From contig NC_083409.1 in assembly GCF_020745735.1 (NCBI RefSeq), positions 36,228,048 to 36,292,047 of the forward strand: a stretch of 64,000 nucleotides of DNA, given 5' to 3'. Shown one piece after another: positions 4,947 through 39,259 of the stretch. Position 1 is the stretch's first letter, and each line of letters opens with the position of its first letter. The notes under the pieces were generated by a model. The model saw only the letters and a list, made by a program, of their open reading frames with translations. It made no database searches and had not been told where the DNA came from. This stretch comes from Hemiscyllium ocellatum. Its lineage: Eukaryota. Made by a program: the position numbers and the translations under genes.

Positions 4947-5149
4947 AATTAGGTTAGTATTTCCCAGCCTATTTCCACTTATCTCCCCATATGAAAGTAA
5001 TAACTCTTTCAGGTCATTTCAATCTTCCTCTGGAAGGTAACTCAATAATTTATCCCAATTTTTGACAACTCCCTCATTGTCCAATTTAATTTGAGGAACG
5101 TCCAACTCAGAATCCTCTGACTTTGATTCTTCCCGCTGTGTTGTGATCA

Positions 5150-9040: not shown

Positions 9041-9042
9041 AC

Positions 9043-9385: not shown

Positions 9386-9390
9386 GTCAC

Positions 9391-9950
9391 TGTAAACTAG
9401 CAATATCATTAGCAAGGACAACTTGTATTCCTGGAGCTGAAGGTTTGTCCAGTACTTCTCCCACGACTTCCCCACTCTTCTCTGGACACTTTAACCCCAC
9501 TCTACATAATTGAGCGCTTCTTGTCTTACCATGAATTCCTGTTACTAGTACCTTTTAGGCAGTAATCCTGCAGAAATACATACCAGTAATTCAAACTGCA
9601 TCATTTCTGTTGCCCTTTCCTTGTCTTTTGCTTATAACTCAATCTGTTTCATTTTCAATTGAATTTTAGCCATCTCTAAAGTTTCTGATGGCATTTCCAG
9701 CAAATTCAAATGCTGAGCAATGGCTGTAATTATCTGCCCTTCCCTCATGGAAGGCAGCAGATCCAACCCCAGCTTGTCTGTTAATTCCAGCACCTTGTCA
9801 TTAATCAACTTTCATAAAGCCCCCAAGGTCACTTCTTCCACCTCCAGAAAACTCTTGGTGATTGAAAGAGCCATTGCTATCCCAAGCAGTGTTTAGACCA
9901 ACCGAATTCAACACCCGGAACAAAAAACACAAACACATACCACTCACTGC
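9391..9950 (-). pseudogene. Gypsy gag/protease-region remnant
   Basis: Lies between the PBS and the Penelope/SINE insertion; reading GNDIASLQ continues as VAVLSTVV on the far side of the insertion (6667 downward). Confidence 0.6.
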
Positions 9951-9995
9951 CTTTAAGTGCAACAAGCAGAATCCCAGTTTGGAACGACAGAACAA

Positions 9996-10013
9996 ATCCC
10001 GGACAAGCTCCCA
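9996..10013 (-). other. Primer-binding site, tRNA-Pro type
   Basis: Minus strand TGGGAGCTTGTCCGGGAT, 16/18 match to canonical tRNA-Pro PBS TGGGGGCTCGTCCGGGAT, next to the 5' LTR. Confidence 0.8.
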
Positions 10014-10016
10014 ATC

Positions 10017-10608
10017 TAGTATGGACCAAGCCTGAACCCTTACAACATTTCAAGAAGGTAGCCCAGACCCTAACTTTGCTAGATGTTTTTGAAGCAGGTG
10101 TAACACCATTACTTCAGGAATGATGCAGCTGGTCAACCCACTTAATTTTAAACAAAACAGAATTTATTAACAAGATTACCGAATGAAACTGACACAAGAC
10201 AGAACAGAACACCGAATATCTTATCCTATCCGGAAACCCAACAGGCTGTCCCAATTTAATGATGCTGTTCCAAGTACTTGCAACAATCCCTGTAAACACC
10301 CCATGGCACAAAAGGTAAAATCAAACACAGGTTCTTACAAGATAGAAGGCAGAGAGAGTGTACCAGCCTGGACCTGCATCTTTGGGTCCAGCAGCTTTTT
10401 TCCACATTACTGCCAAACCAGTGAAAAGCTGAGCTGGGAGAAGTGCTTTTCTTTTAAAACTTGAAAGCCTGAGGCAGCGTCTGTTAGCTATTGTTAAATT
10501 GGCCCCAAAACCCCTTACCCCCAGACTTTTCAGAGTCTGTGTTGTTTACGATCTCTGAAGAAAAAGCCAAGAACAGCAAAACCTTGTTAAAGGAGCTGCT
10601 TCATCACA
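10017..10608 (-). repeat. 5' LTR of the gypsy element
   Basis: Homologous to 2765-3344; plus strand ends CTTCATCACA like the other LTR; followed by PBS on the minus strand. Confidence 0.85.
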
Positions 10609-11589
10609 AATGAATTGCAAATACGTCCTGTAATTGGATGGAAGATAGGTCATGAAGAATCTTCAAGGCTGGCACATATTGGATGTGCATGGGTAAGGGG
10701 TGCATGTGGCTAATGCCCATGGAGTTTGTCTTGAGATGTTAGTGCCCAGTGACCAACATGGGCATTGATTTGAGCAAGCGGTGAGCTGAATTTGTCAGAT
10801 ACATATAATTTTTTGCTCAACATTTGCCTTGTTTGGCGAATTTGGTAAGATAGGAAGCTAAATATTAATGAGGCAAGTTGAGGTATCAATAAGACATTTC
10901 ATAAATGATCAACCATTTAAATGGCAACTGAGTGCCACTTGTCAAAAGCATAGCCCACATCACTCAGATTCCAATGAGATCTGCCCCTTGTATTGATATA
11001 GATATTTCTGTGAAAATAACTCTGAAGCCTACATAAATTATTTTCAAGTGGAATGACTGTTACATCGCTAGATTCAAAAGTTATTTTACAGTAGCCTCAA
11101 CTCACAAATATCAGTGTGATGATGACCGTCTGTTGCATGTTCACCCGGCTATAGAAAAAGCCAAATGGTGCCATTTTAACATCCAGTTGAGGCTTAATCT
11201 CACATGTAAATGAAAGTGCCTCTATCAAAGCAGTGATCATAGAGTACTATCAGACACTTCTGATGAAGAATCACTGGATACTGAGTGCTAATATTTGAGC
11301 CCTATCACCATGGCAATGCTGCAGAATTAAACTACCCCCTCCGTAATTTTTCAATGTTAAACATATTGCCATATCTCTGACAATATAATGAGCGCACACC
11401 ATATTTACAGTGTCCACTGACCTCCCCACTCTCCTGTGATTTGTACAGCCAGAGTCAGGCAGTCAAAAAGTGGAGGTGAGCAATATGAGTGATTCCATCT
11501 CCACAAGAAATAGGTCAATGAGTGGAAAGTGTATGGGAAAAGAAAATAATTAACTTTAAAAGGTTGCATCACTCAGCTAGGGAGGCAGC

Positions 11590-12800
11590 ATCTGTACAAA
11601 ATGCAGGGTCACCAATACTCCAGGATTACCCTGAAATCTCCAAGAACTGAAGATTAATCTCTTAGAAGCGCTCCAGCGAAATTATTGGAAAATGAGGAGA
11701 TGGCAAAGACATTGAACAAATACCTTATGCCTGTCTTTATGGTTGAAAATGCTGCACACCAAAAAGAGAGGGTAACTTAGGCATCGAAAGGAATAAAGAA
11801 TATTAGTGGAGAAAAGAACAGAAATAACTTAAGGGGTTAGAATCTGACAAATTGCAAAGGTTTCATTGTCTCTGCACAATAGTTGTAAAAGAGATGGCAG
11901 GTGGAATTTTGCCAGAAATCAATTCAGTCATTTTCCCCCCTCTGTGGAATGATAACTGATTTGCTTTGTCTCATCTCTATGCAGATTGAAGTCACCTGAT
12001 TCTTGAAGTCAGTGACTCTTGATCATAATTAGAGCTGTCTCAAATTGCCTGTTTAGTGCCTTCCATGTATACAGTTTAGTCGGGTCTGTATACATGAACT
12101 GTCAATTTCTGTCCCTTGGTTTTCCTAAACTCTACCCAAATAGACTCCACTTCACCAGAACTGATATCTGTTTTCATTATTATATTAACTTTACTCTATA
12201 ACCAGCAATGCTAATCCACCTCCTTCTTATTGTCTATCCTTCCAGGAAACTGAAAATCCCTGGAGCCCAGCTTCAAACAGAATGGATGTGTTGGTTTCCA
12301 GTTTACCAAAATACCCTGGATTCTGGAAAGGTCTGAGTGGAGTGGAAGTTAGCAATGTAACACTGCTAGTCAGGCAAGAAGGGAGAGTGAAAATAAGGAA
12401 CTAAGGCCAGTTATCATGACATCAATTAATTGGGAAAGAGTTCAATAAAGTTCCTTAATTAAGTATGTTTCAACAATGTGCTTTAAAAAAACCCCATGGT
12501 TTCATCCAATATAATCAACATGGTTTTAGAAAAGGGAAATCACGTTTGACAAATTTACTCCTTTATGAGGGTCAAACTAGGGAGGTAGTTAAGAGGGAAC
12601 TAATAGCTGCATTATATCTGGATTCCCAAAAGGCATTCTGTATGGTGCTATACTGATGGCTAATAGGTAAGGTAAGGGCTGTGCAACTGAAGATAATGTA
12701 TGAGCATGAATAAAGGATTGGTTAACATACAGGAGATAATAACTCAGTACTGTTGTGACTGTGACAAGAGGAGTGCACTGATAATCAAGCCCCACTATTC
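11590..12800 (+). mobile_element. Highly degenerate CR1 LINE fragments
   Basis: Residual QHGFRKGKSRLTNLL and LYLDSQKAF motifs (12465-12656) similar to CR1 RT; interrupted and rearranged. Confidence 0.55.
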
Positions 12801-14607
12801 TACACTGTTCACTAGTTACACTGCTAATATAATATCAATTTTCTGATTCAATTACCATGATGATCAATTGCTTTTCTATGATCATATTATCCAGCATAAA
12901 ATAAATATTCACCAGGCTTCCTTAATGAAGTCAAAGGAATTCATTTATTGGGAACAGACATGTTTAAAGCTCTGAAGAAGAGTCACTGGACTTGAAACAT
13001 TAATTCTCCTTTTGCTCCAATGATGCTGCCAGACCTGTTAAGTATCTCCAGTAATTTCTGTGTATTATCAGATTTCTTTTTGTCATAGTCCTTTTTGCTT
13101 TTTGTTTTAAGGCAAGTAGCAAATATTGACTAACAGTAAAGATGTGATATAGAATTAAAACTATATTCAACTGATAGATACATGCACACACTACAAAACG
13201 ATACATCTCAGCAGAGTTTCTTTTCCAAATGACAAATTAGTAAATACAATTGTTTGGAAACAAAGAATAACATGAGCCTCACAAACTCATGCGATATTCT
13301 AATTTAAATGTATTATGTTAATAGGTTTGGTTCCACTCACCCACTTAATCTGGCATTTGGAATTGTGTCAAAAATATTAGAAGTATGGTATATCATATCT
13401 AGTAAAACATGGGACTAGATTTTAAGGATGGGGTAAGTTGCCTATCTTTGGGCAGCTTGCCCCTCCACAGCTGAATATCTACAAGGACATAAGGCACTCT
13501 TTTGCACCATTAGGGAGAAAAACTAGTCTTCTACATTTGCCAGTCAGTCTAATAGCTGGCCAATACCTGGTCCCGGCAGTGCTCCCAGGAAAGGTGGCCA
13601 TGCCTGATGCTGCAGTCAATCCAGAAGAAGATATTCCATGATGGAAGCAGGACAGGTGTGGGTAAGTCCAAGGTCGCCCTGGCCTCAGGCTGGCAGACCT
13701 CAGCAAGGGAAGAGTGAGGGGAGATAAGGTTGGACAGGATTCAGAATGGGTGGGGAAATACAAAATTGGTGGAGGTGAGATGGCAGCGGTTCTAATGGAC
13801 ACAAGGGGTGATAGCTGACCAGCCTGCCCAACCACAAAAACAATTAATGGGCATTTTGATCACCTGTGGACAGACCTTCAGGCACGTTCATTCTCACTAG
13901 CAAGATTGAAAGGAGGTTGTTGGGGGAAGTGCAAATCTGTGTCCATGTTACCAACAGACCCTCCCCACATGACGACCATGTTAACAGTGATGAGGTGGAA
14001 AGCAACAGGTAACTACTTGAGCAGACTTTGTGACCAGTCTCTCAAGGTTTACATTTAATGACAATAAAGTCCAATAATCTCATAATGGTCTATGACCATA
14101 TGAATCAGTAACCATGGAAACTGTTTTGACAATACTGACAACCAGAAAGGATAGCTGCTGTGTGTCCCATTTCATATTGATACAACGTGAAGTAGACTTT
14201 TAGTTCTGCATTTTCAAGTGTTGTCTTCAAGAGTCTTTTTTTTCTTTCCCTTGCTGGTATAAGTAGAACTAATACCAATTGAAGCAGAGAGAAAGGAGCT
14301 ATACCTTTGTGGTAACACCCTCGATTGTGAGAAGAGTTTTGAGATAATTTCACATCAATTTGTAGAATTTGTAAAGAAATGGGATTTTAGTCCACATTTC
14401 AGGGGCAGGAGAATTGGAAATATGGGGATAACCTTATTGAATTGATGTCTGTATACAGCACTTGGCAATGATGCCAACTCTTGCCCCAGCCAAAATGAAG
14501 TTGACCAATTTTTATGTAAAAAATGAGGTCTGCAGATGCTGGAGATCACAGCTGAAAATGTGTTGCTGGTCAAAGCACAGCAGGCCAGGCAGCATCTCAG
14601 GAATAGA

Positions 14608-14645
14608 GAATTCGACATTTCGAGCATAAGCCCTTCATCAGGAAT
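14608..14645 (-). ncRNA. Minimal type I hammerhead ribozyme
   Basis: Minus strand ATTC-CTGATGA-AGGGCTTATGCTC-GAAATGTC-GAAT; stem I ATTC/GAAT pairs fully. Confidence 0.72.
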
Positions 14646-14777
14646 GAGAGAGAGTAGCCAAGCAGGCTAAGATAAAAGGTACGGAGGAGGGACTTGGGGG
14701 AGGGGCGATGGAGGTGGGATAGGTGGAAGGAGGTCAAGGTGAGGGTGATAGGCCGGAGTGGGGTGGGGGCGGAGAGG

Positions 14778-17049
14778 TCAGGAAGAAGATTGCAGGTTAG
14801 GAGGGTGGTGCTGAGTTGAGGGAACCGACTGAGACAAGGTGGGGGGAGGGGAAATGAGGAAACTGGAGAAATCTGAATTCATACCTTGTGGTTGGAGGGT
14901 TCCCAGGCAGAAGATGAGGCGTTCCTCCTCCAGCCGTCGTGTTGTTATGTTCTGCCGGTGGAGGAGTCCAAGGACCTGCATGTCCTCGGTGGAGTGGGAG
15001 GGAGAGTTAAAGTGTTGAGCCACGGGGTGGTTGGGTTGGTTGGTCCGGGCGGCCCAGAGGTGTTCTCTGAAGCGTTCCGCAAGTAAGCGGCCTGTCTCAC
15101 CAATATAGAGGAGGCCACATCGGGTGCAGCAGATGCAATAGATGATGTGTGTGGAGGTACAGGTGAACTTGTGGCGGATATGGAAGGATCCCTTGGGGCC
15201 TTGGAGGGAAGTGAGTGTGGAGGTGTGGGCGCAAGTTTTACATTTCCTGCGCTTGCAGGGGAAGGTGCCGGGGGTGGAGGTTGGGTTGGTGGGGGGTGTG
15301 GATCTGACGAGGGAGTCACGAAGGGAGTGGTCCTTGCGGAACGCTGATAGGGGAGGGGAGGGAAATATATCCTTGGTGGTGGGGTCCGTTTGGAGGTGGC
15401 GGAAATGACGGCGGATGATATGTTGTATGCGGAGGTTGATGGGGTGGTAGGTGAGAACCAGTGGGGTTCTGTCTTGGTGGCGGTTGGAGGAGCGGGGCTC
15501 AAGGGCGGAGGAGCGGGAAGTGGAGGAGATGCGGTGGAGGGCATCGTCGATCACGTCTGGGGGGAATCTGCGGTCCTTGAAGAAGGAGGCCATCTGGGCT
15601 GTGCGGTGTTGGAACTGGTCCTCCTGGGAGCAGATGCGGCGGAGACGAAGGAATTGGGAATATGGGATGGCGTTTTTGCAGGGGGCAGGGTGGGAGGAGG
15701 TGTAGTCCAGGTAGCTGTGGGAGTCAGTCGGTTTATAATAGATGTCTGTGTTGAGTCGGTCGCCCGAGATAGAGATGGAAAGGTCTAGGAAGGGGAGGGA
15801 GGAGTCTGAGACAGTCCAGGTGAATTTCAGGTCGGGATGGAAGGTGTTAGTAAAGTTGATGAACTGTTCAACCTCCTCATGGGAGCACGAGGCAGCGCCG
15901 ATACAGTCATCGATGTAGCGGAGGAAAAGGTGGGGGGTGGTGCCAGTGTAGTTGCGGAAGATGGACTGTTCCACATATCCTACGAAGAGGCAGGCATAGC
16001 TGGGGCCCATGCGGGTGCCCATGGCAACTCCTTTAGTTTGGAGGAAGTGGGAGGATTGAAAAGAGAAGTTATTCAGGGTGAGGACCAGTTCAGTCAGTCG
16101 AAGGAGGGTGTCAGTGGAAGGGTACTGGTTGGTGCGGCGGGAAAGGAAGAAGCAGAGGGCTTTGAGTCCTTCGTGATGGGGGATGGAGGTGTACAGGGAC
16201 TGGATGTCCATAGTGAAAATAAAGCGTTGGGGACCGGGGAAGCGAAAATCCTGGAGGAGGTGGAGGGCGTGGGTGGTGTCCCGAACGTAGGTGGGGAGTT
16301 CTTGGACTAAAGGGGACAGGACCGTGTCGAGGTATTGGGAGATGAGTTCGGTGGGGCAGGAGCAGGCTGAGACAATGGGTCGGCCGGGACAGGCAGGTTT
16401 GTGGATTTTGGGCAGGAGGTAGAAACGGGCGGTGCGGGGTTGTGGGACTATGAGGTTGGAGGCGGTGGATGGGAGATCCCCTGAGGTGATGAGGTCATGG
16501 ATGGTCTGGGAGATGATGGTTTGGTGGTGGGAGGTGGGGTCGTGGTCAAGGGGGCGATAAGAGGAGGCGTCCGCGAGCTGGCGTTTGGCTTCAGCGGTAT
16601 AAAGGTCAGTGCGCCAAACTACCACCGCGCCTCCCTTGTCTGCGGGTTTGATGGTGAGGTTGGGATTGGAGCGGAGGGAGTGGAGGGCTGCACGTTCTGA
16701 GGGTGAGAGGTTGGAGTGGGTGAGAGGGGTGGACAGGTTGAGTTGGTTAATGTCACGGCGGCAGTTGGCTATAAAGAGGTCGAGGGCGGGTAGGAGGCCA
16801 GCACAGGGTGTCCAGGTGGATGGGGTCTGTTGGAGGCGGGAGAAGGGGTCGTCAGAGGGTGGGCGGGAGTCTTGGTTGTGAAAGTAGGCACGGAGGCGAA
16901 GGCGGCGGAAGAATTGTTCAATATCTCGGCGCGTGTTGAACTCATTAATCCGAGGGCGTAGGGGAATGAAGGTGAGGCCCCTGCTGAGGTCTGATCTTTC
17001 ATCCTCAGAGAGGGGGAGATCTGGAGGGATGGTGAAAATCCGGCAATGT
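14778..17049 (-). CDS. Penelope-like RT / GIY-YIG endonuclease polyprotein (no start codon, 5'-truncated)
   Basis: Listed 615-aa ORF (YIDD, CKRRKCKTC linker, IIYC...LLYIGETGR) reads open upstream through IKPADKG, RRLRLRAYF and LSRGLTF to about 17049 when translated by hand. Confidence 0.85.
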
Positions 17050-17970
17050 GTCTACTCTTTAAACTAAAAGAAAGCTGAAAGTTAGTAAGTTTGCAGATGG
17101 CACCAAAATTAGAGGTACAGAGAGCGAAGTAGGTTACCTCCGAGGACAAACAGGATTTTGATCAGAAGGGCCAATGGGCCAAAGAGTGCCAAATGGATTT
17201 TAATTTTGGTGAGGCAGATCAGGATTTAGGCACTTAATAGTAAGGTCCTGGGGAGTGTTACTGAACAAAGAGACCTTGGAGTGCAAGTTCATAGTTCCTA
17301 GAAACTGGAGTCGCTGATAGATAGGATAGTGAAGAAGGCGTTTAGTATGCTTTCCTTCTTTGGTCAGAACATTGAGTATAGATGTTGGGGGGGGTCATGT
17401 GGTGGCTGTACAGGATGTTGGTTGGGCCACCTTTGGAATATTGTGTGCAATTCTGGTTTCCTCTTACACGAAGCATGTCGTGAAATTTGAAAGGGTTCAG
17501 AAAAGATTTACAAAGGTGTTGCCAGGGTTGGAGGATTTGAGCTATAGGGAGAGGCTGAAAAGGCTGGGATTGTTTTCCCTGGAGCTTCTGAGACTTAGGG
17601 GTGACCTTATAGAGGTTTATAAAATCATGAGGGGCACGGAGAGGGTAAATAGACAAAGTCTTTTCCCTGGGGTCGGGGAGTCCAGAACGAAAAGGTATAG
17701 GTTTAGGGTGAGAGGAGAAAGAGACCTAAGGGACAACCTTTTCACATTGTGTACAGTGTGTGTATGGAATGGGCTGCCACAGGAAGTTGTGGAGCTGGTA
17801 CAATTACATTTAAAAGGCATCTGGAGGGGTATATGAATACGAAGGGTTTAGAGGGATATGGGCCAAGTACTGGCAAATGGGACTAGATTAATTTCGAATA
17901 TCTGGTTAGCATGGATGAGTTGGACTGAAGGGTCTGTTTCTGTGCTGTACATCTCCTTGACTCTATGATT
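17050..17970 (+). mobile_element. CR1 LINE 3' fragment, degenerate
   Basis: SKFADGTK, VKFERVQKRFTKVLPGLEDLSYRERL, LRGDLIEVYKIMRG and CR1 3' UTR. Confidence 0.88.
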
Positions 17971-18159
17971 CCAGAATTCTCTCAACATAGTCCCCAGCAA
18001 ATAGTCCAGGACTTTATTCATTCCTTAGTGGTTTAGTGCGTTCGCCATCTTGTCACACTACTGTCCTTTTTTTGTGTCAAAATTAAACTTCGCCAAAAGG
18101 GAACTGGTCTTCTGGTCTTTGCCAGAGATGTCATTATCAGGAGAAAATGTTAATCTTGG

Positions 18160-18345
18160 ATGGCCGTACGATTCCATTATCCCAGCGATTCAAAGAAAAG
18201 CAGTGGAGCTCACCCTTGCACTTTGGCCAATATTTATCCCTCAACAAGTGCAATTTTGCTAAAATGGAAGGGCTAGTCATTCACCTTGTTATGAAAGCTT
18301 GCTGTGTGCACATTACCCAATGCCTTTCCTACTTTACAGCAACCT
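18160..18345 (+). mobile_element. Ancient DeuSINE/SacSINE1-like relic
   Basis: GGCCAATATTTATCCCTCAAC...AGCTTGCTGTGTGCACATT...TTTCCTACTTTACAGCA resembles the Deu-domain; a paralogous copy lies at 25620-25800. Confidence 0.55.
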
Positions 18346-18390
18346 GTTGAAGGAGCAGCACTTTGAAAACTAGTGCTTCCAAACAAACAT

Positions 18391-19035
18391 TAGATTCTCT
18401 ACAGTATGGAAACAGGCCCTTTGCCCCAACAAGTCCACACCACTCCTCTGAAGAGTAACCCCACCCATTCCCCTTCCCCTTCCCCTTCCCCTTCCCCTTA
18501 TTTACCCCTGACTAATTCTCCTAATACTATAGGCAATTTAACATGGCCAATTCACCTGACCGGCACATCTTTGGGTGGTGGGAAGATGGGCAGCACAGTG
18601 GCTTAGTGCTTAGCACTACTGCCTCACAGCACCAGAGACCTGGGTTCAATTCCCACCTCAGGCAACTGTCTGTGTGGAGTTTGCACATTCTCCCCGTGTC
18701 TGTGTGGATTTGCTCTGGTTTCTTTTCACAATCCAAAGATGTGCAGGTCAGGCGAATTGGCCATGCTAAATTGCCTGTAGCGTTCAGTGGATTAGTCAGG
18801 GGTAAATATAGGGGGGCGGGGTTTCTCTTTGGGGGGGTTGGTGTGGACGTAGCTGGGCCGAAGAGCCTGTTTCCACACTGTAGGTAGTCTAATCTAAACC
18901 AGAGCACCCGGAGGAAACCCAAGCAGACACAGGAGAACATGCAAACTCCACACAGTCACCCAAGGCTGGAATTGAACCCAGGTCCCTGGTACTGTGAGGC
19001 AACAGTGCTAACCACTGAGACACCATGCTGCCCCT
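18391..19035. mobile_element. HE1 SINE (+, 18584-18898) inserted inside an older HE1 SINE (-)
   Basis: Minus-strand 3' half at 18391-18583 and 5' half at 18899-19035 join across the plus-strand copy; (CCCCTT)n microsatellite near 18470-18500. Confidence 0.85.
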
Positions 19036-21475
19036 TTTTAATTAGATTGTGTTTGACTTTAACCTTGTGTTGCATGATTTTTAACTTTGTCCATCTCAGT
19101 CCAACACCGGCTCCTCCACATCATACTTTAAAGCAATAAGTGAAATCAAGGAAGTACCGAGGAAGTGTAAAGCTCTCTGGAAAACCTTTTCAGGTTATGC
19201 AAGGTGTTTTATATGCATGGGTAAAAGCTTTGTTCAGTTTCATTTTGACTGACATGAAATATCTGATGGCTGACGTCTTGGGCTGCTCAGTGGCATTTAA
19301 AATTTTACGTTTTCCAAGAAAGGGCAAGGAGATATTGAAGGGGCAAATAAATAATTGATGGATGTAATTACACTGCAGTCTTTCTTTTTTTGTGTTTAAG
19401 TTTGACATGAATGTTATTTTCATTTATCTTTAGGTTTTTTGCGTATATTGTCATAGCCATCTTGAAGAAACAACTCAATGTCTGCAGTGCAGTTTTGAGG
19501 CAGAAAGGTATATGCATCCTCAGTTTCTTTACACACAGCAAACTCCAATCAGTTGATGACTTGTTCCCCAAATCTCTACATCCAATCACCCATTTACTCT
19601 TTAACTCACAGAGAGATTTTGCCAGGACCTTCATTCCATTTGGTCACATACACATCTGATATAATCTATGAGGTGGGAGCAGCATTGTTACATTCCAGCA
19701 GTGAAAAGTAGTTGCTGTCAGGTTTGCACCAATGGCAGCAGTCTCACCTGAGAGTCAGACATTTATCAGTTGTAGTGATACTGAGAATAAAATCATAGCT
19801 GGCAAATATTGTCCAGTACTGAGCAGGTATTGCACTGTCAGAGCTGTCAGCTGTCAGAGAGGATGCCAAACTGAGCTCCTGGTTTGCTTACTCTACTTAG
19901 ATGTTGTGGCCTTCTATAAAGAGGAATGGTGGATGTCTGCCTAGTTCCTAGCTAAAACATGCAAGTCCAAAAAAAATTCATAATAACAGTGAACAGTATC
20001 TGGTCATTATCATTCAGCATTGTTGAAGTTTTCTGTGTACAAATGGTCAGCCATATTTCTTATAATGCTAAAGATCCTTTAGTATGAGGTTTTTTGAGCA
20101 GGCTCCTCAGTTGCATAGGGTGCAATTTTTAAATCAACGTTTCCCTGTGTTGCACTTGGTGCGGCCTGCTGAGGTTTCTGAAAGATTAGTTCTGATGCAC
20201 ACTGAGTTGGTATGTTTTCCTTTCTTGTGACATTTTAACTATTATTTCAAATCACAAAGGAATGGCACAAAGATAGGATTATCACACAGTCTATACTAAA
20301 TGGTTCAGTGAAAAACTGCAAGAAAAGAGAAAGAAGTTGTCTTATATTATCACCAATGAAAAGAGATTCGTCCCAGATTTCATTTTCGTAACCAATTACA
20401 TTACAATTACCTCCACACAGATCAGACACCATAGGATGAATGACAAAGATTGTGAACACCAACCCCAGAGTCAGCTGTCTACTTTTGTTCTCAGTAGTGT
20501 TGGTGGAGTCTTTTGAGACTCCAAATGACAGTGTCTGTGCTGAGCTCAATGGTAGAGGGTTGTAGATTTATCTGCTTTTTAAGGAGTTTGAGGACGGATG
20601 TGACCACCCATCCACTTGACAGCTGACCAGCCAGCCCAACCTCAAAAATAACTCATCAAGTTTTTATTCAGATGTGGGTGTGCCTCCTGGTATTTTCAAG
20701 ATTGCAGGGAGGGTGTTGGTGGAGATGGGGAACTGTACGTACCCAGGATATGGTGCCCAACTTTACCAACAGACCCACACCACATGACAACCATGTAAAG
20801 AGTGATGAGGTGGAAAACAACAGATAACTGCCGAAGCAGTCTTTGTTGCCCCTCATGGAAAGTTTTCTTTTGAAAAGGGTGGGTTCAATGACTTCATGAT
20901 GGTTTGACTACGATGTCATAAATCAGTAACCATGCAAATGTTTGACAACAAAAAATGATAAACAATAACTGCTATGTGTCCCCATTTCATGTTGAGACTG
21001 TAGAGTGTTAGTTCTGCATTTTCAGGTGTGTTTTTTTTTCTCTCTCTCCCTCGTTTGTCTGATTAGAACTAACACTAATTGAAACAGAGAGAAAGGATAC
21101 CTTTGTGGTATTACTCTTGGTTGTGAGAAATGTTTTGATGTAATTTGAAATCATTTCTATTGGGCAGAATTTGTACCAAAATTGGATTTTAATTCATGTT
21201 TCACAGAAAGAAAAATTGGAAACATGAATGTAAATATGAGGATAACTCAACTGAATTCATGTGTGAATGTTACAGTTGGCAATGGCTCCCATCCTTCCCA
21301 CAATAAAGATTAAATTGGCCACTTTTTATGTGTCTACTGTTTGAAAGTAAATTTCCATTGACATTGATTCCAGCAAAATATTTCTGTGTTAGAGACAGCT
21401 AAATATTCAATCATTCGAGGCACGGTGCATTTACCATAGCACCACTCTGCTGTGCCATTACTGTGTTTAAACTAA

Positions 21476-21662
21476 GGAGAAAGTGACGACTGCAGATGCT
21501 GGAGATCAGAGCAGAAAATGTGTTGCTGGAAAAGCGCAGCAGGACAGGCAGCATCCAAGGAGCAGGAGAAGGGCTTCCTGAAGAAGGGCTGATGCCCGAA
21601 ACATCGATTCTCCTGCTCCTTGGATGCTGCCTGACCTGCTGCGTTTTTCCAGCAGCACATTA
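21476..21662. mobile_element. Inverted Penelope termini forming a long hairpin around a hammerhead core
   Basis: Arms 21517-21570 and 21608-21661 match 51/54; loop contains CTGAAGA-AGGGCTGATGCCC-GAAACATC. Confidence 0.8.
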
Positions 21663-24600
21663 TCAGCTGTGTTTAAACTAAACCAATTTTAAGAGATTAG
21701 TGTCAGACATCCTTTTCAGAATCACATGGGAGCAATGGAGCACTGCTACATAGAGAAAATTGGACTGAGTTTGGGTGGAGAGATTGGAGTTATTGATTAT
21801 GAAAATATGCATGGATAAGCATTAATGGTTTAGTGGACATTGAGTAGACAGGTGAATAATAGCAGAAGAGAAAAAAATGTTTGAAATTTATTGATCTAGT
21901 ATTAAAAGTTGCCTGCAGTATTCCACCTTTTGTGTTTAACTGGGGTTTGACTCGAATGATCTCCTCACTTGTATTACAAATTTGACTGTATCTCATATTC
22001 GAAGACAACTTGTGGCAGAAAGTTGATTATCTATTCCCATTGTTGGCTCACTGTTTTGTTGATTGTCTATCCCCATTGTTGCCTCACTGTTCTGTCATAG
22101 ATAAAAAAACACCTATAGATCATGTTGACTGGAACAAGGTGGCGCAATGTTTTAATCTGCGAAATCGTGTTTCTGCTTGTATGCTTTATGGATGCAGCAA
22201 AGGCATTCTGTACTCACATTAGTAGTCAGCCAATATTTATGATCCCACAAATGGAGTTTTGCTTAATTTTACCTAATGAGTGAGCACAAGAGACAAAGCC
22301 AGAAATACAGTATGGGCTATGTTGTAATGTTTTGTGGACTTTTAAGAAACATTCGTACAGATCAGACACTCAGGATGATTGACAAAGATTGTAAAGCACT
22401 ATACCCAGAGCTAGTCGCCCACTTTTATCCTCATGTACAAATCAAACAGTGTTAATGGTGTCTTTTGAGGCATCAATGGTCAATGTATGAGCTGACCTCA
22501 ACAGTAAAGATTTATCTGGTTTTTGAGGGACTTTGGGGACTGATGTGACCATCCATCCTCTTGAGAGCTAACTAGCCAGCCCAACCACAATACCAATGAC
22601 TTGATGTTTTAGTCACGTGTGGCAGGGCATCCTGGCACCTTCACCCAACTGGCAAAGGGGAAGTGGGGGTATTGTATCCATGACATGATGGCCAAATTTA
22701 CCAACAGACCCTCCCTCTCCACATGACCATGTAAATGGCAATGAATTAGAAAGCAACAGATAACTGCTCAAGCAGACTTTGTGTTCCTTCTCAGAAGGTG
22801 TTCTTTTGAAAATAATGAGTCCAGTGACTTCACAATGTTTTGACTATGATGTCATCAATCAGTAACCATGGAAACATTTAAAAACAGAATAAACTAATAT
22901 ACAATAACTGCTGTGCCTCCCCATTTCAGGTTGAGACAACGTGGAGTGAACACTGGAGAATTTTATTTCTGCATTTTCAGGTGCGTATTGTTTTTTTCTC
23001 CCCTCTCCCTCATTATTCTGATTAGAAATAACACTAGTTGAAACAAAGAAAAAGGATACTTTTGTAGAATTACTTTCGGTTGTGAGAAATGTTTTGATGT
23101 AATTTGAAATCATTTGTACTGGGCAGAATTTAGAACAAAATTGGCTTTTAATCCACGTTTCACAGAAAGGAAAATTGGAAACATGAATGTGAATATGGGG
23201 AGAACTCTATTGAATTCATGTGTGAATGTTACAGTTGGCAATGGCTCCCATCCTTGCCAAAATAAAAATTAAATTGGCCGCTTTTTATGTGTCTACTGTT
23301 TGAAAGAAAAGGAAATTGAAAGCCAAGTTCTGTTGACATTGTCCCCAGCAAAACAATCCCGGGACAAGGACAGTTAAATTTTAAATCCTTTTGAGGCATT
23401 GAAGATTTATCTGGTTTTTGAGGGACTTTGGGGACTGATGTGACCAACCCATCCTTTTGAGAGTTAACCAGCCAGCCCAACCACAAAACCAATAACTTGA
23501 TGTGTTTAGTCATGTGTGGCAGGGCATGCTGGTGATTTCAACCTGATTGGCAAGGCAGAGGTGGGGGTATTGTATCCATGACATGATGGCCAAATTTACC
23601 AACATGACCATGTAAACGGCGATGAATTAGAAAACAACAGATGACTGCTCAAGCAGACTTTGTGTTCTTTTTTGGAAGGCTTTCTTTTTAAAATAATGAG
23701 TTCAGTGACTTCACAATGTTTTGACTATGATGTCATAAATCAGTAACCATGGAAACATTTGAAAACAGAATAAAAATATACAATAACTGCTGTGCCTCCC
23801 CATTTCAGGTTGAGACAACGTGGAGTGAACACTGGAGAGTTTTAATTCTGCATTTTCAGATGCGTATTGTTTCTTTGCCTCTCCCTCAATTGTCTGATTA
23901 GAAATAATACTAGTTGAAGCAGAGAGAAAGGATACTTTTGTGGAATTACTCTCGGTTGTGAGAAATGTTTTGATGTAATTTGAAATCATTTGTACTAGGT
24001 AGAATTTATAACAAAATTGGAATTAAATTGGCCACATTTTATATTTCTTACAATGCAACTGGTAAAGATTCTTTAGTATGAAGTTTTTTGAGCAGGTTCC
24101 TCAGTTGCATAGGGTGCAATTTAAATCAATGTTTCCCTATGTTCCACTTGGTGCGGCCTGCTGAGGTTTCTGAAGGATTAGTTTTGATGCACGCTGAGTT
24201 GGTATGCATTCCTTTCTTGTGACATTTTAATTATATTTCAAATCACAAGGGAATGACACAAAGATAGGATTATCCCACAGTCTATACTAAATGGTTCAGT
24301 GAAAAAACTGCAAAAGAGAAAGAAGTTGTCTTATATTATCACCAATGAAAAGAGATTCATCCCAGATTTCCTTTTCACAACCAATTACATTACAATTACC
24401 CCCACACAGATCAGACACCATAGGATGAATGACAAAGATTGTGAACACCAACCCCAGAGTCAGTTGTCTACTTTTGTTCTCAGTAGTGTTGGTGGAGTCT
24501 GTTGATGTAATTTGAAATCATTTGTACTGGGCAGAATTTAGAACAGAATTGGATTTTAATCCACGTTTCACAGAAAGGAAAATCGGAAACATGAATGTGA

Positions 24601-26725
24601 ATATGGGGAGAACTCTATTGAATTCATGTGTGAATGTTACAGTTGGCAATGGCTCCCATCCTTGCCAAAATAAAAATTAAATTGGCCGCTTTTTATGTGT
24701 CTACTGTTTGAAAGAAAAGGAAACTGAAAGCAAAGTTCGGTTGACATTGTCCCCAGCAAAACAATCCAGGGACAGGGACAGTTAAACTTTAAATCCTTTC
24801 GAGGCATTAAAGATTTATCTGGTTTTTAAGGGATGCTGGGGACTGATGTGACCAACCCATCCTTTTGAGAGCTAACCAGCCAAGCCAGCCCAACCACAAT
24901 ACCAATAACTTGATGTGTTTAGCCATGTGTGGCAGGGCATCCTGGTGATTTCAACCTGACTGGCAAGGCAGAGGTGGGGGTATTGTATCCATGACATGAT
25001 GGCCAAATTTACCAACAGACCCTCCTTCTCCACATGACCATGTAAACGGTGATGAATTAGAAAACAACAGATAACTGCTCAAGCAGACTTTGTGTTCTTT
25101 TTTGGAAGGCTTTCTTTTTAAAATAATGAGTCCAGTGACTTCACAATGTTTTGACTATGATGTCATAAATCAGTAACCATGCAAACATTTGAAAACACAA
25201 TAAACAATGAACAATAACTACTGTGCCTCCCCATTTCAGGTTGAGACAACGTGGAGTGAACACTGGAGAGTTTTAATTCTGCGTTTTCAGGTGCGTATGC
25301 TTTTTTTTCCCTCTCTCTTATTAGTGTGATTAGAAATAATACTTGTTGAAGCAGAAAGAAAGGAAGAATACCTTCATGGTATCATTCTCGGTTGTGAGAA
25401 ATGTAATTTGATGTAATCTGAAATCATTTGTACAAAGAAATTAGATTTTAGTCCATGTTTCACAGAAAGGAAAACTGGAAATGTGAACACAAATATAGGG
25501 GTAACCCTACTGAATTCATGTGTGTATGTTGCAGTTGACAATGGCTTCAACTCTTGTCAGTACTAAAATTAAATTGGCCACATTATTGGGTCAGCTTTTT
25601 GATATTAATCTAGCATGACCATAAGATCCCATTATCTCAAGAATTTGAAGAAAATCAGTGAAACTGTCCCTTGCACATTGTCAAATATTTATCCCTCAAT
25701 CTTAAATGGAGGAACTAGTTATTAATACTCGGATATTGGATATTCATGAAACTTTACTGTATGCGCACTATCCAGTGCCTTTCCTACTTTACAGCATAGT
25801 CGAGAACAACTAGATATAGAAAGCCTTAAGGAAATCCTTCCAGATGTGGAAGGTGGTCTGTTAGAGTGAAGCTCTATTGAGTTTCATTTTGACGTGAAGT
25901 ATCTGAAGGATAATGCCCTTGGCTGGTCAGTTGACAAATTAAACTTTTAATTTTTCTAAGGAACGGCAGGTAGATATTGAAGGGGCAAATGAATAATAGA
26001 CAGATGTAATTGCACTAATGTCAGCATATCATATGTTTTGGTCCGATATTTAAGTTTGATGCCAGTCTTTGTATTTTTGTGTTGAATCTCGTTTTGACTC
26101 ATGATGTTTTCAAATTTCTTTTCAAACTCACTACATTTCAACGAGTGATCTCGCAGCATCGCACTTCTATTTTGATTCAGAAAGGTAAGAACTATCCTTA
26201 GTTCTTCACACTCATCAAACTCCAATCCAGTGGTATCTTGTTCACCGTGTCCAGGCATTCTTTAACATATTCATTTAAAAATGATTTTAATTTACATATA
26301 ACTTTGCATGCTACTTTGAGCCATTTTCTGACACTCTCATCTCTGCCATATCCAACTGGATAATAACATCAGTGTTGCAAGACACCTGTGAAAAGGAATA
26401 ATTGTCAGCCTTGCATCACTGGCAGCAGTGTGTCTCCAGTGTCAGACATTTCTCAGTTGTAACAATGAGGACTGATATGGCCACCCCTTTGAACAACCTA
26501 AACATACAGGGTGAGCAATGAATGATCGGGCATCCAACTGTTGTCTCTACAGTTTCCCAGCTATGTTCTCCCAACTCCCCAGGCTGGTTTCAGTCATCCA
26601 CTTGACTGACCATGACGCAGTAACTGACCTGCAGAGGTATGGATTCCAAGAACCTGACTGCCTCTGATGGCCAAATGTCAGTGCCCCCACCCCTGGATTA
26701 CTGCTCTTGACTAATCCACTAAAAT

Positions 26726-27039: not shown

Positions 27040-30000
27040 AATCCTGAATGTACGTTGTCTCCCTACTTCATCTGTAGGTTACCCTCTTTAGAAGTTGGGA
27101 TAATGCTTCCAGGATGTGCAAGACATATATATATATTTATTCACAAATATGTTAAAGTGAAAGCTTTGTGAATTTTAATTTTGAATAGCAAACTATGACT
27201 TCAGCATTGAGATATTTTTAAGGAAGAGCAAAATGATATCGAAAGACCAATATAATCATGGACACATGTAATTGCTTTGAAGTTAGCAGTTGATAATTAT
27301 TGGTCCAGTATTCTAGTTTAATGGCATTTTTTTCTCTTTTTATGTTGAATTTTGTTTTGACTGTCACAATGTTTTCATTTCACTTGTAGAACTCACTTTC
27401 AATCATCTGAATGATCTCACTGAGACACTCTGATTCCTATACTTCTATTTTGATTCGGAAAGGTAAGAGCTATCCTTAGTTCTTCACATACCACAAACTC
27501 CAATCCATTGATATCGTGTTCTTCATATCCCTCATTTGGTCACGCACTCAGACAATTATATTTTAATTCACATATAATTTTTGCCTGCTCTTTTGATCTA
27601 TTTGCTGACTCTCATCTCTGCCATATCCTACTAGACAATGACACTAGTGTTGCATGACATCTGTGAAAAGGAGTAGTTGTTGGACTTGCAGCAGTGGCAG
27701 AAGTTTGCCCCTCCCCAGAGTCAGACATTTCTTAGTTATAATAATGCTGAGCACAATGAGGACTGATAGTGAAAGGTTTGTTGAGTTTCATTTTGAGGGA
27801 TCTCAAGTGTATGAAAGTTTGAGGTTCTGGTCTGCTCAGTTGGCCTGTTACATTTTCCATTTTTCTCAGCAAGAGCAAGTTGATATTGAAAGTGTAAACA
27901 AACATTTATGTTTACCACGGAGGATTGTCCTTCTCAATCTCTGCCCTCGCCTGACCCTCAGGTTAAACAACCACCAGTTGGCGACATTGGCGACTTTATA
28001 TTTGAGAAATGTTGGTCATTTTGGCATAAACATGCTGTTTTTTTTAATAATAGCTTTAGATCTGGAAATAGCTGTAGCTGAACATTTCAAATTCGAGCTA
28101 TGTCAGTTAGGTGAAATCCCGAGATAGATATTTTAGCCAAACTTTTGTCAAGTGCAACTTCTGAAGACTATCATTCAAAATTTCAAAACTGTCATTTTAG
28201 TTGTGTCAGTGTATTAATGGTAAATGAATAAAAGATGAGTAATTGGAGTTGAGATAGAAATGGGTCGTGATACAATTCTCAAGTGGCCTTATTCATATGA
28301 ATTCAAAAAATATAGTTTGTGTGCTGAGACTTTAGCAAGCAAAATGTAAGACAAACTGAGTAACAAATGTATACCATGTACTAGGGTAGAGATCCATTAA
28401 AATGTTCCCACTTAATATTAATTAAATAACTGGTAAATGTATTGTTTTATTTTTGATTGAAGACTGATATAGAATAATGATCTAATTTCTGTCCACAATG
28501 AATGCAAAACGACTATATAATCATCAAAAGGAATTGGGTCCCTTGATGTAACATAGTGGATGTGGTGAAGATAACTGTCAGGTCTTTAATAAATTTTTAA
28601 TAATCACCATGACTGGGAATGAACTTGTAACCACAAAGTGCAATGTTTTAATCGGGTTTAACTGTGGACCTTAGATAGTGTTTCATTCACTGGCCAAATT
28701 TTGCTGCTCTTCCATATGCAAGGCCTGACAACCTTCAGTCAACGAAATCCAAATTTGAATCAGGTTTGCAAACCAATTCCTAAATTCAAAACAAGAAAAG
28801 AACCTGTCGTCATCTGTCAGGCAATCCTTCTGTTCACTAGCATGTTGTAGTATTATGACTATTAAAGGAAAACCGAACAAGTTCATGTGGAACTCTACTT
28901 AATTTTTGAAACCTGAATGTGCACACTTTAATTGATTTTCTTCACTGTGTAATTAACTTTATTAGCGCCTCCAGTCTGCTTTACTTGAAATATTAATATC
29001 ACCTTCAAATATTTCCTCCATCCCTGTTGATTGCTTATTTATTCCAACTGTTTAATATGGTGGAAAGCACATGAGTTTTCATTTATCTCCACACATGCTA
29101 TGCATTGAGCTACTGTGACTTATTGCATTTGATTATGTGTTTTTCATTTTTCTGGCATTGTAACAACTTAGAAATACTGGAGGGCAGATCCTTCCATAGC
29201 CTATCCTTCCCTGTCTTCTGTTGCACCATGCAAGGCATGGGAAGGAAAGGCGTGAGAAGAAGTCTAGAGGAATGAGGGAAAAACTCAGGGAGGGAAGATA
29301 TCCAGAATGTCCATTGTGTGACCCTTAGATATACAGCACAGCACTAGATTTCTGAACAGCTCTTTTGAGAACCTAGGATCGTTAAGGTGGAAGGCTTCTA
29401 TGTTGTTACCTGGAAAGTTAAAAATTTATATGACACGAATTGACTTGATGGTAATTAGGGGAGTGAGTATGACGAGTCAGGGATTCAACAGCCTAGTTCT
29501 TCCATGGCAGAACAGATGGAAAGAACCATAAATAGTGTGAGAGTGGAAGGAACAGAGGTTTCATGCATTTAAAGGGTCAAAGCAATGTATTCACAGCTGG
29601 TTGCCATTATCTTAGTAATGTAATAGTTTTACTTTAATAGTTTTACTTTTTTATTGTTTAGGCATGGACATTACATAATTTTTCTTACTGAGCTTGTCAA
29701 TATGGTTGTAAAATATCAATTTATTTTATGTTATTTGTCTTATTAGATTAAAATGATATATATAAACATATATAAACAAATAGAGCATTAGTGCTTTTAC
29801 TTAACAAGGAAGTGAGTGAAAATTGGGGGCAGGATTGAGGTGGTAAAGCAAAACAGCACAGACAAAAGTTAAAGGCAATAATTACGGATTTAAGTCACCA
29901 TGATAACATTATGTTTGGAGGCTGACTTAGGATAGGATGCCAGAAAGAACATGGCCTAATTTCTGCTGAAACCAATTAAAATACAAGTACATAGTTAGTG

Positions 30001-38087: not shown

Positions 38088-39194
38088 CTAATTCCTTCTT
38101 GTAGGTTTTTTTCTCTTCCCTGTCTTCCTCTGTTGCTTTGATTTCGTTCTTTTACCCATTGGAGATTCCAAAATTTTAACTGTTTCGGTTACTTGAATGT
38201 CACGTGGTGTTGATCTTGTTGATGTTTCCCCTTTGCATATGTTAGGCATGTTGAGATGTCTCACAACATTCTTTGGTTTAGTGTCCTGTTGTTGATGTGT
38301 CTGTACATACAAAGGTGATGGTAGCTTGTTGGTAAGATTCATGTATGGCTGAAATAATTGGTATGGAGCCATTAATGTCATTTGATTCACAGCTGGAGAT
38401 GGTACTTGTGAACTAGGATACACGTCCATCTCTGGTGGCTTAAGATGTTGCATTTGATATTGCTTTGCTTGGGGTACTACATCTATGTAAGAAGGATGAA
38501 CACCAGTAATGGCAGCTATCTGATGGGCATTGCTGAGGTCTGCAAAAGCTCTTTCAGGCAAAATTGTGTTGTAAAGAGTTAGCCGTGGCACACCATTCAC
38601 AAACCTGTGAAGAATTGTCAGCCATGTTTCACTGCTGATGGGATTGAGGGTCACTCTTGGCCAAAGTGAAGCCAAGTTATGGAGAGCTTCTCTATTCCAC
38701 CCAGATTCGGAAAAGTGATCATCCGTATGGTAGAGTGCAGAGAAATATATGTCCAACCTTGTGCTGGGAAAATCAAACAAGAAATCATTTATTTTGGTTA
38801 TGCAGCAGTGAGCTCTTTCATTACAAGGGGTGTAGTTGGAATAAATGGTAATGTAAGCAATGTCTTCATATGAGTACAACAGTGCATCCAGGTAGCCATC
38901 CATGTCAAAGAAGATAGATTCTGGATGAAGTTGATATAAAGTGCAGTTAGTTACTTGTCCTTTTTGCACTATAGTACCAGATGATAATTTCAGTTCATAG
39001 AAGATCAGATGCCTGTCAGACTGTGGTTGAGCATACGGAAATCCAAATGTTTCATAAAATTCAATGTAGGAAACTCGTGCTTCTTCTCCAGTTTTGATGT
39101 GATAGGGACATTTTGGGCATCTTTCAGTGGAATACAGCCAGTAGTAAGGTTTCACCAGTGTTCCTTGAGGAGCAATATATTCTTCATAAGTCAT
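38088..39194 (-). CDS. APOBEC4: APOBEC4 (putative C-to-U editing enzyme), single coding exon, 368 aa (382 aa if ATG at 39236 is used)
   Basis: Collinear with the vertebrate APOBEC4 sequence as I recall it: YEEYI..GTLVKPYYWL, CPYHIKTGEEARVS, FYELK, HPE (38919-38927), SNYTPCNERAHCC (38802-38828), WNREAL..LASLWPRV, KPKNVVRHLNMP, basic C-terminus; no stops. Confidence 0.96.
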   Translation of the reverse strand: MTYEEYIAPQGTLVKPYYWLYSTERCPKCPYHIKTGEEARVSYIEFYETFGFPYAQPQSDRHLIFYELKLSSGTIVQKGQVTNCTLYQLHPESIFFDMDGYLDALLYSYEDIAYITIYSNYTPCNERAHCCITKINDFLFDFPSTRLDIYFSALYHTDDHFSESGWNREALHNLASLWPRVTLNPISSETWLTILHRFVNGVPRLTLYNTILPERAFADLSNAHQIAAITGVHPSYIDVVPQAKQYQMQHLKPPEMDVYPSSQVPSPAVNQMTLMAPYQLFQPYMNLTNKLPSPLYVQTHQQQDTKPKNVVRHLNMPNICKGETSTRSTPRDIQVTETVKILESPMGKRTKSKQQRKTGKRKKPTRRN

Positions 39195-39259
39195 TGTTAT
39201 GATGGTTGCTTCACTTTGATTTTGTTGCAAAATCATAACCACTTAAGGATAATATATTC

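What the first reader, a model, noticed from the sequence alone, without database searches (positions are those of the whole stretch)
13790..25585. Unassigned 0.9-kb unit duplicated at least five times in a shuffled mosaic
Seen: the same ordered modules (GATTTATCTG..CCAGCCCAACC..ACCAACAGACCC; CAGTAACCATG..CTGCATTTTCAG; CACAGAAAGGAAAATTGGAAAC..AAATTGGCC) recur at about 13790-14520, 20560-21400, 22505-23400, 23400-24010 and 24505-25585. Extra modules are shared by 20070-20560, 22355-22505 and 24062-24500. The 22.5-25.6 kb copies look much closer to each other than to the 13.8 and 20.5 kb copies. I recognise no TE hallmarks (no TIR, LTR, A tail or TE protein motif). Inference: repeated unequal crossing-over over a long period, a pattern more typical of gene-family, promoter or small-RNA arrays than of neutral DNA.
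Basis: partly seen in the sequence, partly recalled or inferred. Interest (0 to 1): 0.7.

Follow-up and report, generated by a model that had tools for sequence, protein, structure and literature searches.

The report
Old nested duplication in shark DNA
A 0.9-kb piece of non-coding DNA sits in six whole or partial copies between two genes of what is likely a shark, shuffled among scraps of old jumping elements; it likely arose by repeated copying accidents and shows no clear sign of doing a job, so it looks ordinary.

Summary
The repeat is real. The 0.9-kb unit (U) occurs as four near-full and two partial copies, 67-98% alike, inside a larger shuffled array (13.2-27.9 kb) in a gene gap between a COLGALT-type gene and APOBEC4. 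Read contigs match individual copies letter for letter, and two related species carry the older copies. U is not a dispersed transposon: genome searches found it at three loci only, and the outside copies bring flanking DNA with them (up to about 4 kb, old transposon scraps included), as segmental duplications do. Two co-duplicated modules are decayed copies of a common old repeat. Four of four clean junctions carry 4-7 bases of microhomology, and copies are chimeric. No coding signal, protein homologue, Rfam family or shared RNA fold was found, and U diverges from relatives no slower than its flanks. One hairpin in a side module weakly resembles miR-92, below threshold and with an altered seed. 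Best reading: a mostly neutral complex tandem segmental duplication, built in at least four rounds by microhomology template switching plus unequal exchange or conversion, with slices copied to other chromosomes. Expression is untested.

The parts
10610..12951 (+). Block A: left flank shared colinearly with G000:C189:16.037-16.042 Mb (69-74%); holds old dispersed-repeat pieces, including a decayed reverse-transcriptase fragment near 12400-12800
13221..13776 (+). Module V: flank of U1 shared with G000:C50:80.976-80.977 Mb (70%)
13776..14520 (+). U1, the most diverged copy (67-72% to the others); its 5' end is of the C50 type; cut on the right by a Penelope-type insertion
14520..17051 (-). Younger Penelope-type retroelement (757-aa ORF with RVT_1 and a weak GIY-YIG hit) inserted between U1 and X1
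18120..18342 (+). X1: decayed copy of an old dispersed repeat, duplicated with the block
   Evidence: E 7e-19 to a profile built from 25 copies elsewhere
19215..19790 (+). Y1; its first half is also present in several copies at G000:C2:109.197-109.215 Mb
19703..20068 (+). Second decayed copy of the same old dispersed repeat
   Evidence: E 3e-21
20060..20420 (+). Z1; holds a hairpin at 20090-20178 with a sub-threshold likeness to mir-92 (22.4 bits, cut-off 47)
20417..20560 (+). Zend1, the lead-in to U2
20560..21430 (+). U2, full copy with long tail
21672..22357 (+). W (21672-21940, shared with C189) and W2 (holds a Y-like piece at 21881-21990); preceded by a palindromic high-copy repeat at 21461-21702
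22357..22505 (+). Zend2, the lead-in to U3
22502..23400 (+). U3, full copy with long tail
23400..24039 (+). U4, 5' two thirds; internal deletion between two AAATTGG words, then joined to Z2
24041..24505 (+). Z2 (92% to Z1); second mir-92-like hairpin at 24084-24170 with a further change in the seed-equivalent bases
24502..24806 (+). U5, 3' third and tail, 93-99% to U3
24806..25600 (+). U6, chimeric: 5' part 93-98% to U4, 3' part about 80% to U2, U3 and U5 and followed by X and Y as U1 is
25600..25862 (+). X2, decayed old dispersed repeat, paralogue of X1 (69%)
25865..26470 (+). Y2
26533..26714 (+). Module T, which lies upstream of the Y head here and at C2
27161..27902 (+). Y3 (27161-27755) and Y4 (27769-27902, head only); right end of the array
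38088..39242 (-). APOBEC4-type coding exon (384 aa open frame), nearest gene; its 3' end faces the array from 10 kb away

Best explanation
This is a complex local tandem segmental duplication of non-coding intergenic DNA, likely neutral, and likely built in several rounds by microhomology-guided template switching together with unequal exchange or gene conversion. Shown: six U pieces in at least four identity layers (67-72, 75-79, about 85-92, 93-99%), chimeric copies, short shared words at the module junctions, dead repeat fragments carried inside the duplicated block, and paralogous slices with flanks on three other contigs. Inferred: an ancestral 2-3 kb block (U, spacer, Y, Z, Zend) was duplicated head to tail long ago; slices of that early array were copied to C189, C50 and C2; later polymerase or repair jumps at 4-7 base microhomologies made U3|U4, U4|Z2 and Z2|U5; the homology so created then allowed exchange that made U5 and the 5' part of U6 nearly identical to U3 and U4. 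Young retroelements inserted afterwards. It remains recognisable probably because sharks mutate slowly.
For: Low copy number: U was found at 3 loci with a window copy (10 matches on C9, C189, C50) and at the same 3 with the C50 copy apart from CT-microsatellite hits; a U profile hit none of 12 control windows. The outside copies carry flanks: C189 shares 10610-12951, Zend, U and W in order, C50 shares V and U, and the shared flank contains old repeat pieces that must predate the copying. X1, X2 and 19703-20068 match a repeat with 40 of 40 scored genome hits on many contigs and 15 hits in 600 kb of control DNA. Junction words: GAGGCA (U3|U4, repeated at U5|U6), AAATTGG (U4 deletion), CCA(C/T)ATT (U4|Z2, 6 of 7), TTGA (Z2|U5); chance of an exact shared word at a random junction is 0.021 for 4, 0.002 for 6 and 0.0007 for 7 bases. 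Sliding identities and sub-trees disagree along the unit. No frame shows coding constraint (pN/pS permutation p 0.24-0.82; stop depletion p 0.06-0.27). Divergence to relatives: U 5.2% vs flank 4.2% in run X11 (p 0.21), 6.1% vs 4.4% in run X9 (p 0.052). Consensus fold only -5.9 kcal/mol over 457 columns with no covariation gain. Among-site rate variation (gamma alpha 3.0) lies within that of four old-repeat control sets (2.1-3.8).
Against: Conservation along U is patchier than a uniform-rate model: best 30-column window 21 vs 14.6 +/- 1.7, reached by 0 of 60 realigned simulations, and 0 of 150 for six copies. In three-way inter-locus tests it mostly fades (2 to 122 of 150) and the best window moves, and missing rows inflate it, but short constrained motifs are not excluded. 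The old-repeat control may itself contain constrained domains. The mir-92 likeness covers both hairpin arms. Splice-like AG and GT words recur in U and Y, not tested against chance. Both blocks that left this locus multiplied again where they landed (U twice at C189; T/Y pieces at least four times at C2), which neutrality does not predict. The species comparison spans only 4-6% divergence and about 0.75-1.0 kb of U, so its power is low. Genome searches score only the best candidates, so copy counts are lower bounds. Junction parents are old, so microhomology lengths are approximate.
Confidence: 0.72

Rival explanations
1. The array is, or once was, a non-coding RNA or regulatory array: a spliced lncRNA with repeated short exons, a host of small RNAs such as the miR-92-like hairpin in Z, or a set of enhancers acting on APOBEC4 or the COLGALT-type gene.
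For: Patchy conservation; mir-92 model hits at both Z copies, E 0.095 and 4.3 over 14.7 kb; 22 of 28 identity to the 3' arm of two true mir-92 loci; donor- and acceptor-like words in U and Y; re-multiplication at other loci.
Against: Score 22.4 vs cut-off 47 bits, three 5'-arm pairs broken and a longer loop; the bases matching the seed differ from all three true loci in Z1 and more so in Z2; fold z -1.6 and -2.4 vs -3.6 and -3.9 for two true loci; no flank homology to the three true mir-92 loci; the hairpin is not in U. GT/AG words are lost in several copies. U is no slower than its flanks.
Confidence: 0.13
2. U with its flanks is the worn remnant or cargo of a very old, low-copy mobile element (Helitron-like or another capture-prone element) that tends to form tandem copies.
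For: Copies on three contigs, tandem at two; four outside loci each share a different slice with this one; an old mid-copy repeat sits at the left end of the shared block.
Against: No terminal repeats or A tail; no transposon protein in six-frame read-through or among 1.84 billion proteins; outside copies begin and end at different places and include embedded older repeats; only three loci found.
Confidence: 0.1
3. U is a decayed protein-coding exon set from an extinct tandem gene family.
For: One + frame is open for 66 codons in the C50 copy and reads through U1 with an in-frame 15-base deletion; stop depletion borders on significance (p 0.06-0.07).
Against: pN/pS no lower than column-shuffled controls; most indels are not multiples of three; the profile of that frame gave 1 hit in 1.84 billion proteins, a 21-residue match summed over 7 internal repeats of a 3,138-aa protein; no Pfam hit; no trace in 244 kb of C9 of the GPCR family that flanks the outside loci.
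Confidence: 0.04
4. The near-identical copies at 23.1-25.4 kb are an assembly duplication.
For: U3/U5 and U4/U6 reach 97-99% in places; the U3|U4, Z2|U5 and U5|U6 junctions are not bridged among the listed contig pieces, and no piece spans the array (table cut).
Against: Overall identity of 23094-23995 to 24502-25433 is 91.6%; copy-specific contigs from two same-species runs of two studies match U3, U4, U6 and Z2 separately with 0-3 differences, and the U4|Z2 and U6|X2 junctions are bridged. One of the runs may be the assembled sample.
Confidence: 0.01

Closest known systems
Microhomology-mediated copy-number changes (MMEJ, FoSTeS, MMBIR, serial replication slippage); PMC3597517, abstract read
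   Same: Short shared words at junctions between unrelated segments; several jumps within a few kb; all pieces on one strand.
   Different: That work concerns fresh human deletions with known parental alleles. Here the junctions are fixed, old and overwritten by later exchange, so the mechanism is inferred.
Primate mosaic segmental duplications and core duplicons (PMC5088589, PMC2323237: search listing and start of abstract only)
   Same: Mosaic of modules, local and inter-chromosomal copies, transposon fragments as passengers. Three of the four outside loci lie within 12-30 kb of members of a very large single-exon GPCR family, two of them within about 4 Mb of a contig end.
   Different: Modules here are 0.15-2.3 kb and 60-98% alike, mostly below the usual definition of at least 1 kb and at least 90% (recalled). 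No gene was found in the core.
Deu-domain SINEs of sharks (SacSINE1; PMC5499810, passages read) for modules X and 19703-20068
   Same: An old, abundant repeat whose copies are about 70-80% alike; the paper reports about 74-75% identity to consensus in other cartilaginous fish.
   Different: U itself does not belong to it.
mir-92 precursor family (Rfam RF00464) for the Z hairpin
   Same: Hairpin with a similar 3' arm and a short match in the 5' arm.
   Different: Less than half the cut-off score, altered seed-equivalent bases, weaker fold, no cluster or flank homology; three true loci lie elsewhere.

Membership tests
Complex tandem segmental duplication | Several same-strand copies of non-repetitive DNA within a short interval | tested here: met
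Complex tandem segmental duplication | Copies include flanking DNA and embedded older repeats, with no fixed element ends | tested here: met
Complex tandem segmental duplication | At least 1 kb and at least 90% identity (operational definition, recalled) | tested here: inconclusive
   only the youngest pair comes close: 932 bp at 91.6%; the older layers do not
Microhomology-mediated template switching (FoSTeS/MMBIR-type) | Microhomology at junctions above chance | tested here: met
   4 of 4 junctions with both parents at hand show 4-7 bases; U5|U6 repeats U3|U4 and is not counted; W2|Zend2 lacks a left parent
Microhomology-mediated template switching (FoSTeS/MMBIR-type) | All junctions formed in one event | tested here: inconclusive
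   pieces differ in identity to their parents (Z 92%, U5 93-99%), so several events or later conversion
Dispersed transposable element | Many dispersed copies | tested here: not met
   3 loci; 0 hits in 600 kb of controls; lower bound
Dispersed transposable element | Terminal repeats, A tail or transposon protein | tested here: not met
Dispersed transposable element | Match to a Dfam or Repbase consensus | not testable with these tools
mir-92 precursor (Z hairpin) | Rfam gathering score of 47 bits | tested here: not met
   22.4 and 17.4 bits
mir-92 precursor (Z hairpin) | Seed region identical to true loci | tested here: not met
   true loci read GTATTGCAC or ATATTGCAC, Z1 GTGTTGCAC, Z2 ATGTTCCAC
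mir-92 precursor (Z hairpin) | Processed small-RNA reads from both arms | not testable with these tools
   no RNA run could be laid
snoRNA or other structured ncRNA array | Rfam family or conserved covarying structure across copies | tested here: not met
Protein-coding gene array | Conserved open frame under purifying selection, with homologues | tested here: not met
Promoter, enhancer, lncRNA or piRNA-cluster array | Transcription start sites, open chromatin or mapped RNA | not testable with these tools
   needs expression and chromatin data
SacSINE1 / Deu-SINE (modules X and 19703-20068) | Old high-copy dispersed repeat | tested here: met
SacSINE1 / Deu-SINE (modules X and 19703-20068) | Match to the Deu domain and tRNA-like head of the published consensus | not testable with these tools
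   supplement unreadable; name recalled

The most novel reading that the evidence does not exclude
This gap holds an ancient shark core duplicon: a transcribed non-coding block that seeds fresh tandem duplication wherever a slice of it lands (C9, C189, C2), sits at a rearrangement break beside APOBEC4, and carries a seed-shifted miR-92-like small RNA of its own.
Probability: 0.08. Interest if true: 0.6.

Novelty: new member of a known kind. Interest (0 to 1): 0.2.

Why it matters
If the best reading holds, it matters little: it is a tidy example of how duplications nest and shuffle, kept readable in a slowly evolving genome, and a caution that such low-copy DNA escapes repeat masking and can look like a functional array. 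If the novel case holds, it would give a non-primate example of a core duplicon and a lineage-specific small RNA next to a poorly understood deaminase gene, both testable with existing shark RNA and genome data.

Tried and rejected
Expression: no RNA holder listed among 23 runs; this says nothing either way. In the two related species, bins 23431-23683 and 24443-24695 had little cover, which might mean the youngest copies are absent there, but missing cover is not evidence. Tandem Repeats Finder sees no array of U (period limit 500). RSS-like, C/D-box and H/ACA-box words noticed by eye are not kept across copies; not pursued. A hairpin scan of both strands found no strong hairpin shared by U copies. 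Rfam on six stretches of the outside loci gave 1 weak SCARNA7 hit over a TG microsatellite. The idea that the array lies in an RGL1 intron (human gene order, recalled) failed: no RasGEF or RA exon near the window among 39 and 15 matches, and the ARPC5-like hit on C9 is 17 Mb away. A GPCR-cluster remnant was rejected for this locus; the family is so large (10,857 candidates, 146 scored) that its nearness to the outside loci is weak evidence. A first second-round repeat profile was contaminated by neighbours and rebuilt. One search was swamped by a common repeat. A genome-wide profile search with U was not available for this genome, so the copy count rests on two single-sequence searches. Absolute dating with 7e-10 per generation (PMC10587355, passages read) gives about 30-380 million generations, too old to be credible, so only relative ages are used. 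Earlier findings of the scan: none near, none by words, none by sequence; three unrelated ones in the genome. Paper searches listed nothing on this locus; they cover open-access full text only.
Full report
Observation. Self-BLAST and a nine-row alignment confirm the repeat. There are six pieces of the unit U on the + strand: U1 13776-14520, U2 20560-21430, U3 22502-23400, U4 23400-24039 (5' two thirds), U5 24502-24806 (3' third and tail) and U6 24806-25600. U1 is 67-72% identical to the rest, U2 75-79% to U3, U4 and U6, those three 85-91% among themselves, and the U3 tail 95.5% to U5. Other modules are duplicated with it: X, Y, Z and Zend, so the array runs from about 13.2 to 27.9 kb, interrupted by younger insertions such as a Penelope-type element at 14520-17051. 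In 12 arbitrary 50-kb windows non-transposon local duplication covered 0-1,604 bp, against 7,560 bp here, so the array is uncommon.

Is it real? Logan contigs of two same-species DNA runs from two studies were laid on 19130-26700. Of 16 listed pieces, 13 match with no difference and the other three with 0-3 substitutions and 2-4 gap letters; they cover U2, U3, U4, U6, Z1, Z2, X2 and Y2 separately and bridge W2|Zend2|U3, U4|Z2 and U6|X2. Three junctions (U3|U4, Z2|U5, U5|U6) are not bridged among the listed pieces, the table is cut, and one run may be the assembled sample. Runs of two related species cover U2, the start of U3 and U6-X2-Y2 at 3-8% difference, so the older array predates those splits.

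Setting. The repeats and the flanking genes point to a shark (my inference, partly from recalled repeat families). The array lies in a gap of about 68 kb between a + strand glycosyltransferase whose last exon ends in RDEL 30 kb left of the window (Glyco_transf_25 hits are weak, the name COLGALT is recalled) and an APOBEC4-type exon on the - strand at 38088-39242. Peroxiredoxin-6-type exons lie 120-130 kb to the right of the window start. In human, as I recall, RGL1 lies between COLGALT2 and APOBEC4 and those two genes share a strand; here they converge and no RasGEF or RA exon was found nearby. The gap may therefore contain an old rearrangement break; this is an inference from recalled gene order.

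Not a dispersed element. Searching the genome with U3 gave 10 matches on three contigs: this array, C189 (two copies, about 70%) and C50. The C50 copy as query returned the same loci plus microsatellite hits. Counts are lower bounds. The outside copies carry flanks. C189 shares 10610-12951, then Zend, U, W and a second partial U in order; C50 shares V and a U1-type copy. C2 holds several copies of T and the head of Y inside its own mosaic of local duplications, and C115 shares 2035-2778 and 10609-11040, the two sides of an LTR element in the window. The shared flank includes old dispersed repeats and a decayed reverse-transcriptase piece, which is what copying of a genomic segment gives and what insertion of an element does not. 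This locus has every slice while the others share few with each other, so it, or its ancestor, is the likely donor (inference). U has no terminal repeats or A tail. X1, X2 and 19703-20068 match a profile built from 25 copies of an old dispersed repeat (E 7e-19, 2e-7, 3e-21; 15 hits in 600 kb of controls); I take it for SacSINE1 by recall, untested.

Mechanism. Where both parents of a junction survive, short shared words mark it: GAGGCA between the U tail and Zend (U3|U4, inherited by U5|U6), AAATTGG for the deletion in U4, CCA(C/T)ATT from the U end into the repeat tail before Z, and TTGA from Zend into the middle of U. Random junctions share 4, 6 and 7 bases with probability 0.021, 0.002 and 0.0007. 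Such junctions are attributed to MMEJ, FoSTeS, MMBIR or slippage (PMC3597517, abstract). Copies are chimeric: U6 is 93-98% like U4 over its 5' part but about 80% like U2, U3 and U5 at its 3' end, where it continues into X and Y as U1 does, and trees of sub-regions disagree. That needs unequal exchange or conversion on top of the switches. At least four layers can be told apart; the youngest is about as old as the split from the two relatives, the oldest roughly ten times older in distance.

Function. Protein: no Pfam hit at E below 0.09 in six-frame read-through of 10.6-14.5 and 18.0-28.5 kb; no frame beats shuffled columns in pN/pS (p 0.24-0.82), though stop depletion is borderline (p 0.06-0.07); a profile of the best-looking frame found 1 protein in 1.84 billion, a short match summed over internal repeats. 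RNA: no Rfam family at threshold in the window; no consensus fold for U. The one lead is a hairpin in Z that scores 22.4 bits on mir-92 (cut-off 47) and matches 22 of 28 bases of the true 3' arm, but its seed-equivalent bases differ, its fold is weaker, and it has no flank homology with the three true loci. Constraint: U differs from relatives by 5.2% and 6.1% against 4.2% and 4.4% for its flanks, and its rate variation matches old-repeat controls. Against this, conservation is patchier than uniform-rate simulations for six or seven copies; the signal weakens and moves in three-way inter-locus tests and is inflated by missing rows and local conversion, but short constrained motifs remain possible. 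Transcription and chromatin were not testable.

Verdict. A real, old, layered local segmental duplication of intergenic DNA with a few inter-chromosomal slices, most likely neutral (0.72). It is a new example of a known kind. Papers: PMC5499810 and PMC10587355, passages; PMC3597517, abstract; PMC5088589 and PMC2323237, listing only. The supplement of PMC5499810, which may hold the SacSINE1 alignment, could not be read.

Noticed in passing
window 38088-39242 (-): APOBEC4-type deaminase exon, 384-aa open frame, converging on a COLGALT-type gene across 68 kb with no RGL1-like exon found between them; differs from the human order as I recall it.
   Followed up: partly
window 14520-17051 (-) and 6680-9043 (-): Two Penelope-type elements, 77% alike; the first has a 757-aa open frame with RT and a weak GIY-YIG hit.
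   Followed up: partly
window 2783-10608: Old LTR retrotransposon (LTRs 81% alike, RT and integrase remnants) with a Penelope-type element and a SINE nested inside; the DNA on both sides of it is shared with G000:C115:1.769-1.785 Mb.
   Followed up: partly
window 51600-64000 and L025: ERV-like remnants (gag-, pol- and possibly env-like frames, repeated ends) with a related copy at G000:C2:109.174-109.181 Mb; broken into many short frames; observed only.
   Followed up: no
G000:C2:109.165-109.232 Mb (L077-L079, L061-L064): A second, larger mosaic of old local duplications, including about seven copies of a short LINE-endonuclease-like fragment (family name recalled, no Pfam hit) and the T/Y block of this locus.
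   Followed up: partly
G000:C189:16.046-16.053 Mb (L015): Another local array of a 0.5-1.6 kb unit (66-77%) next to a single-exon GPCR gene; unrelated to U by profile search.
   Followed up: partly
L015:8465-9250 (-) and genome-wide: A very large single-exon rhodopsin-type GPCR family: 10,857 first-look candidates, 146 of 146 scored matches at 50% identity or more, many near contig ends and on small contigs.
   Followed up: partly
window 21461-21702, 44540-44734: Palindromic high-copy repeats that fold as long hairpins and draw spurious microRNA model hits (mir-2756, 46 bits, below cut-off).
   Followed up: partly
window 39661-41597 (-): CR1-type LINE with a 618-aa open frame; its 3' part is 99% identical to a copy on C189, so the family is young.
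   Followed up: no
window 60561-61439 (-): 292-aa open frame without a Pfam hit that reads like a LINE ORF1 (recalled likeness).
   Followed up: no
L019:1217-1380 (-): Weak SCARNA7 hit (29 bits, cut-off 65) over a TG microsatellite inside the insert between V and U at C50; probably chance.
   Followed up: no
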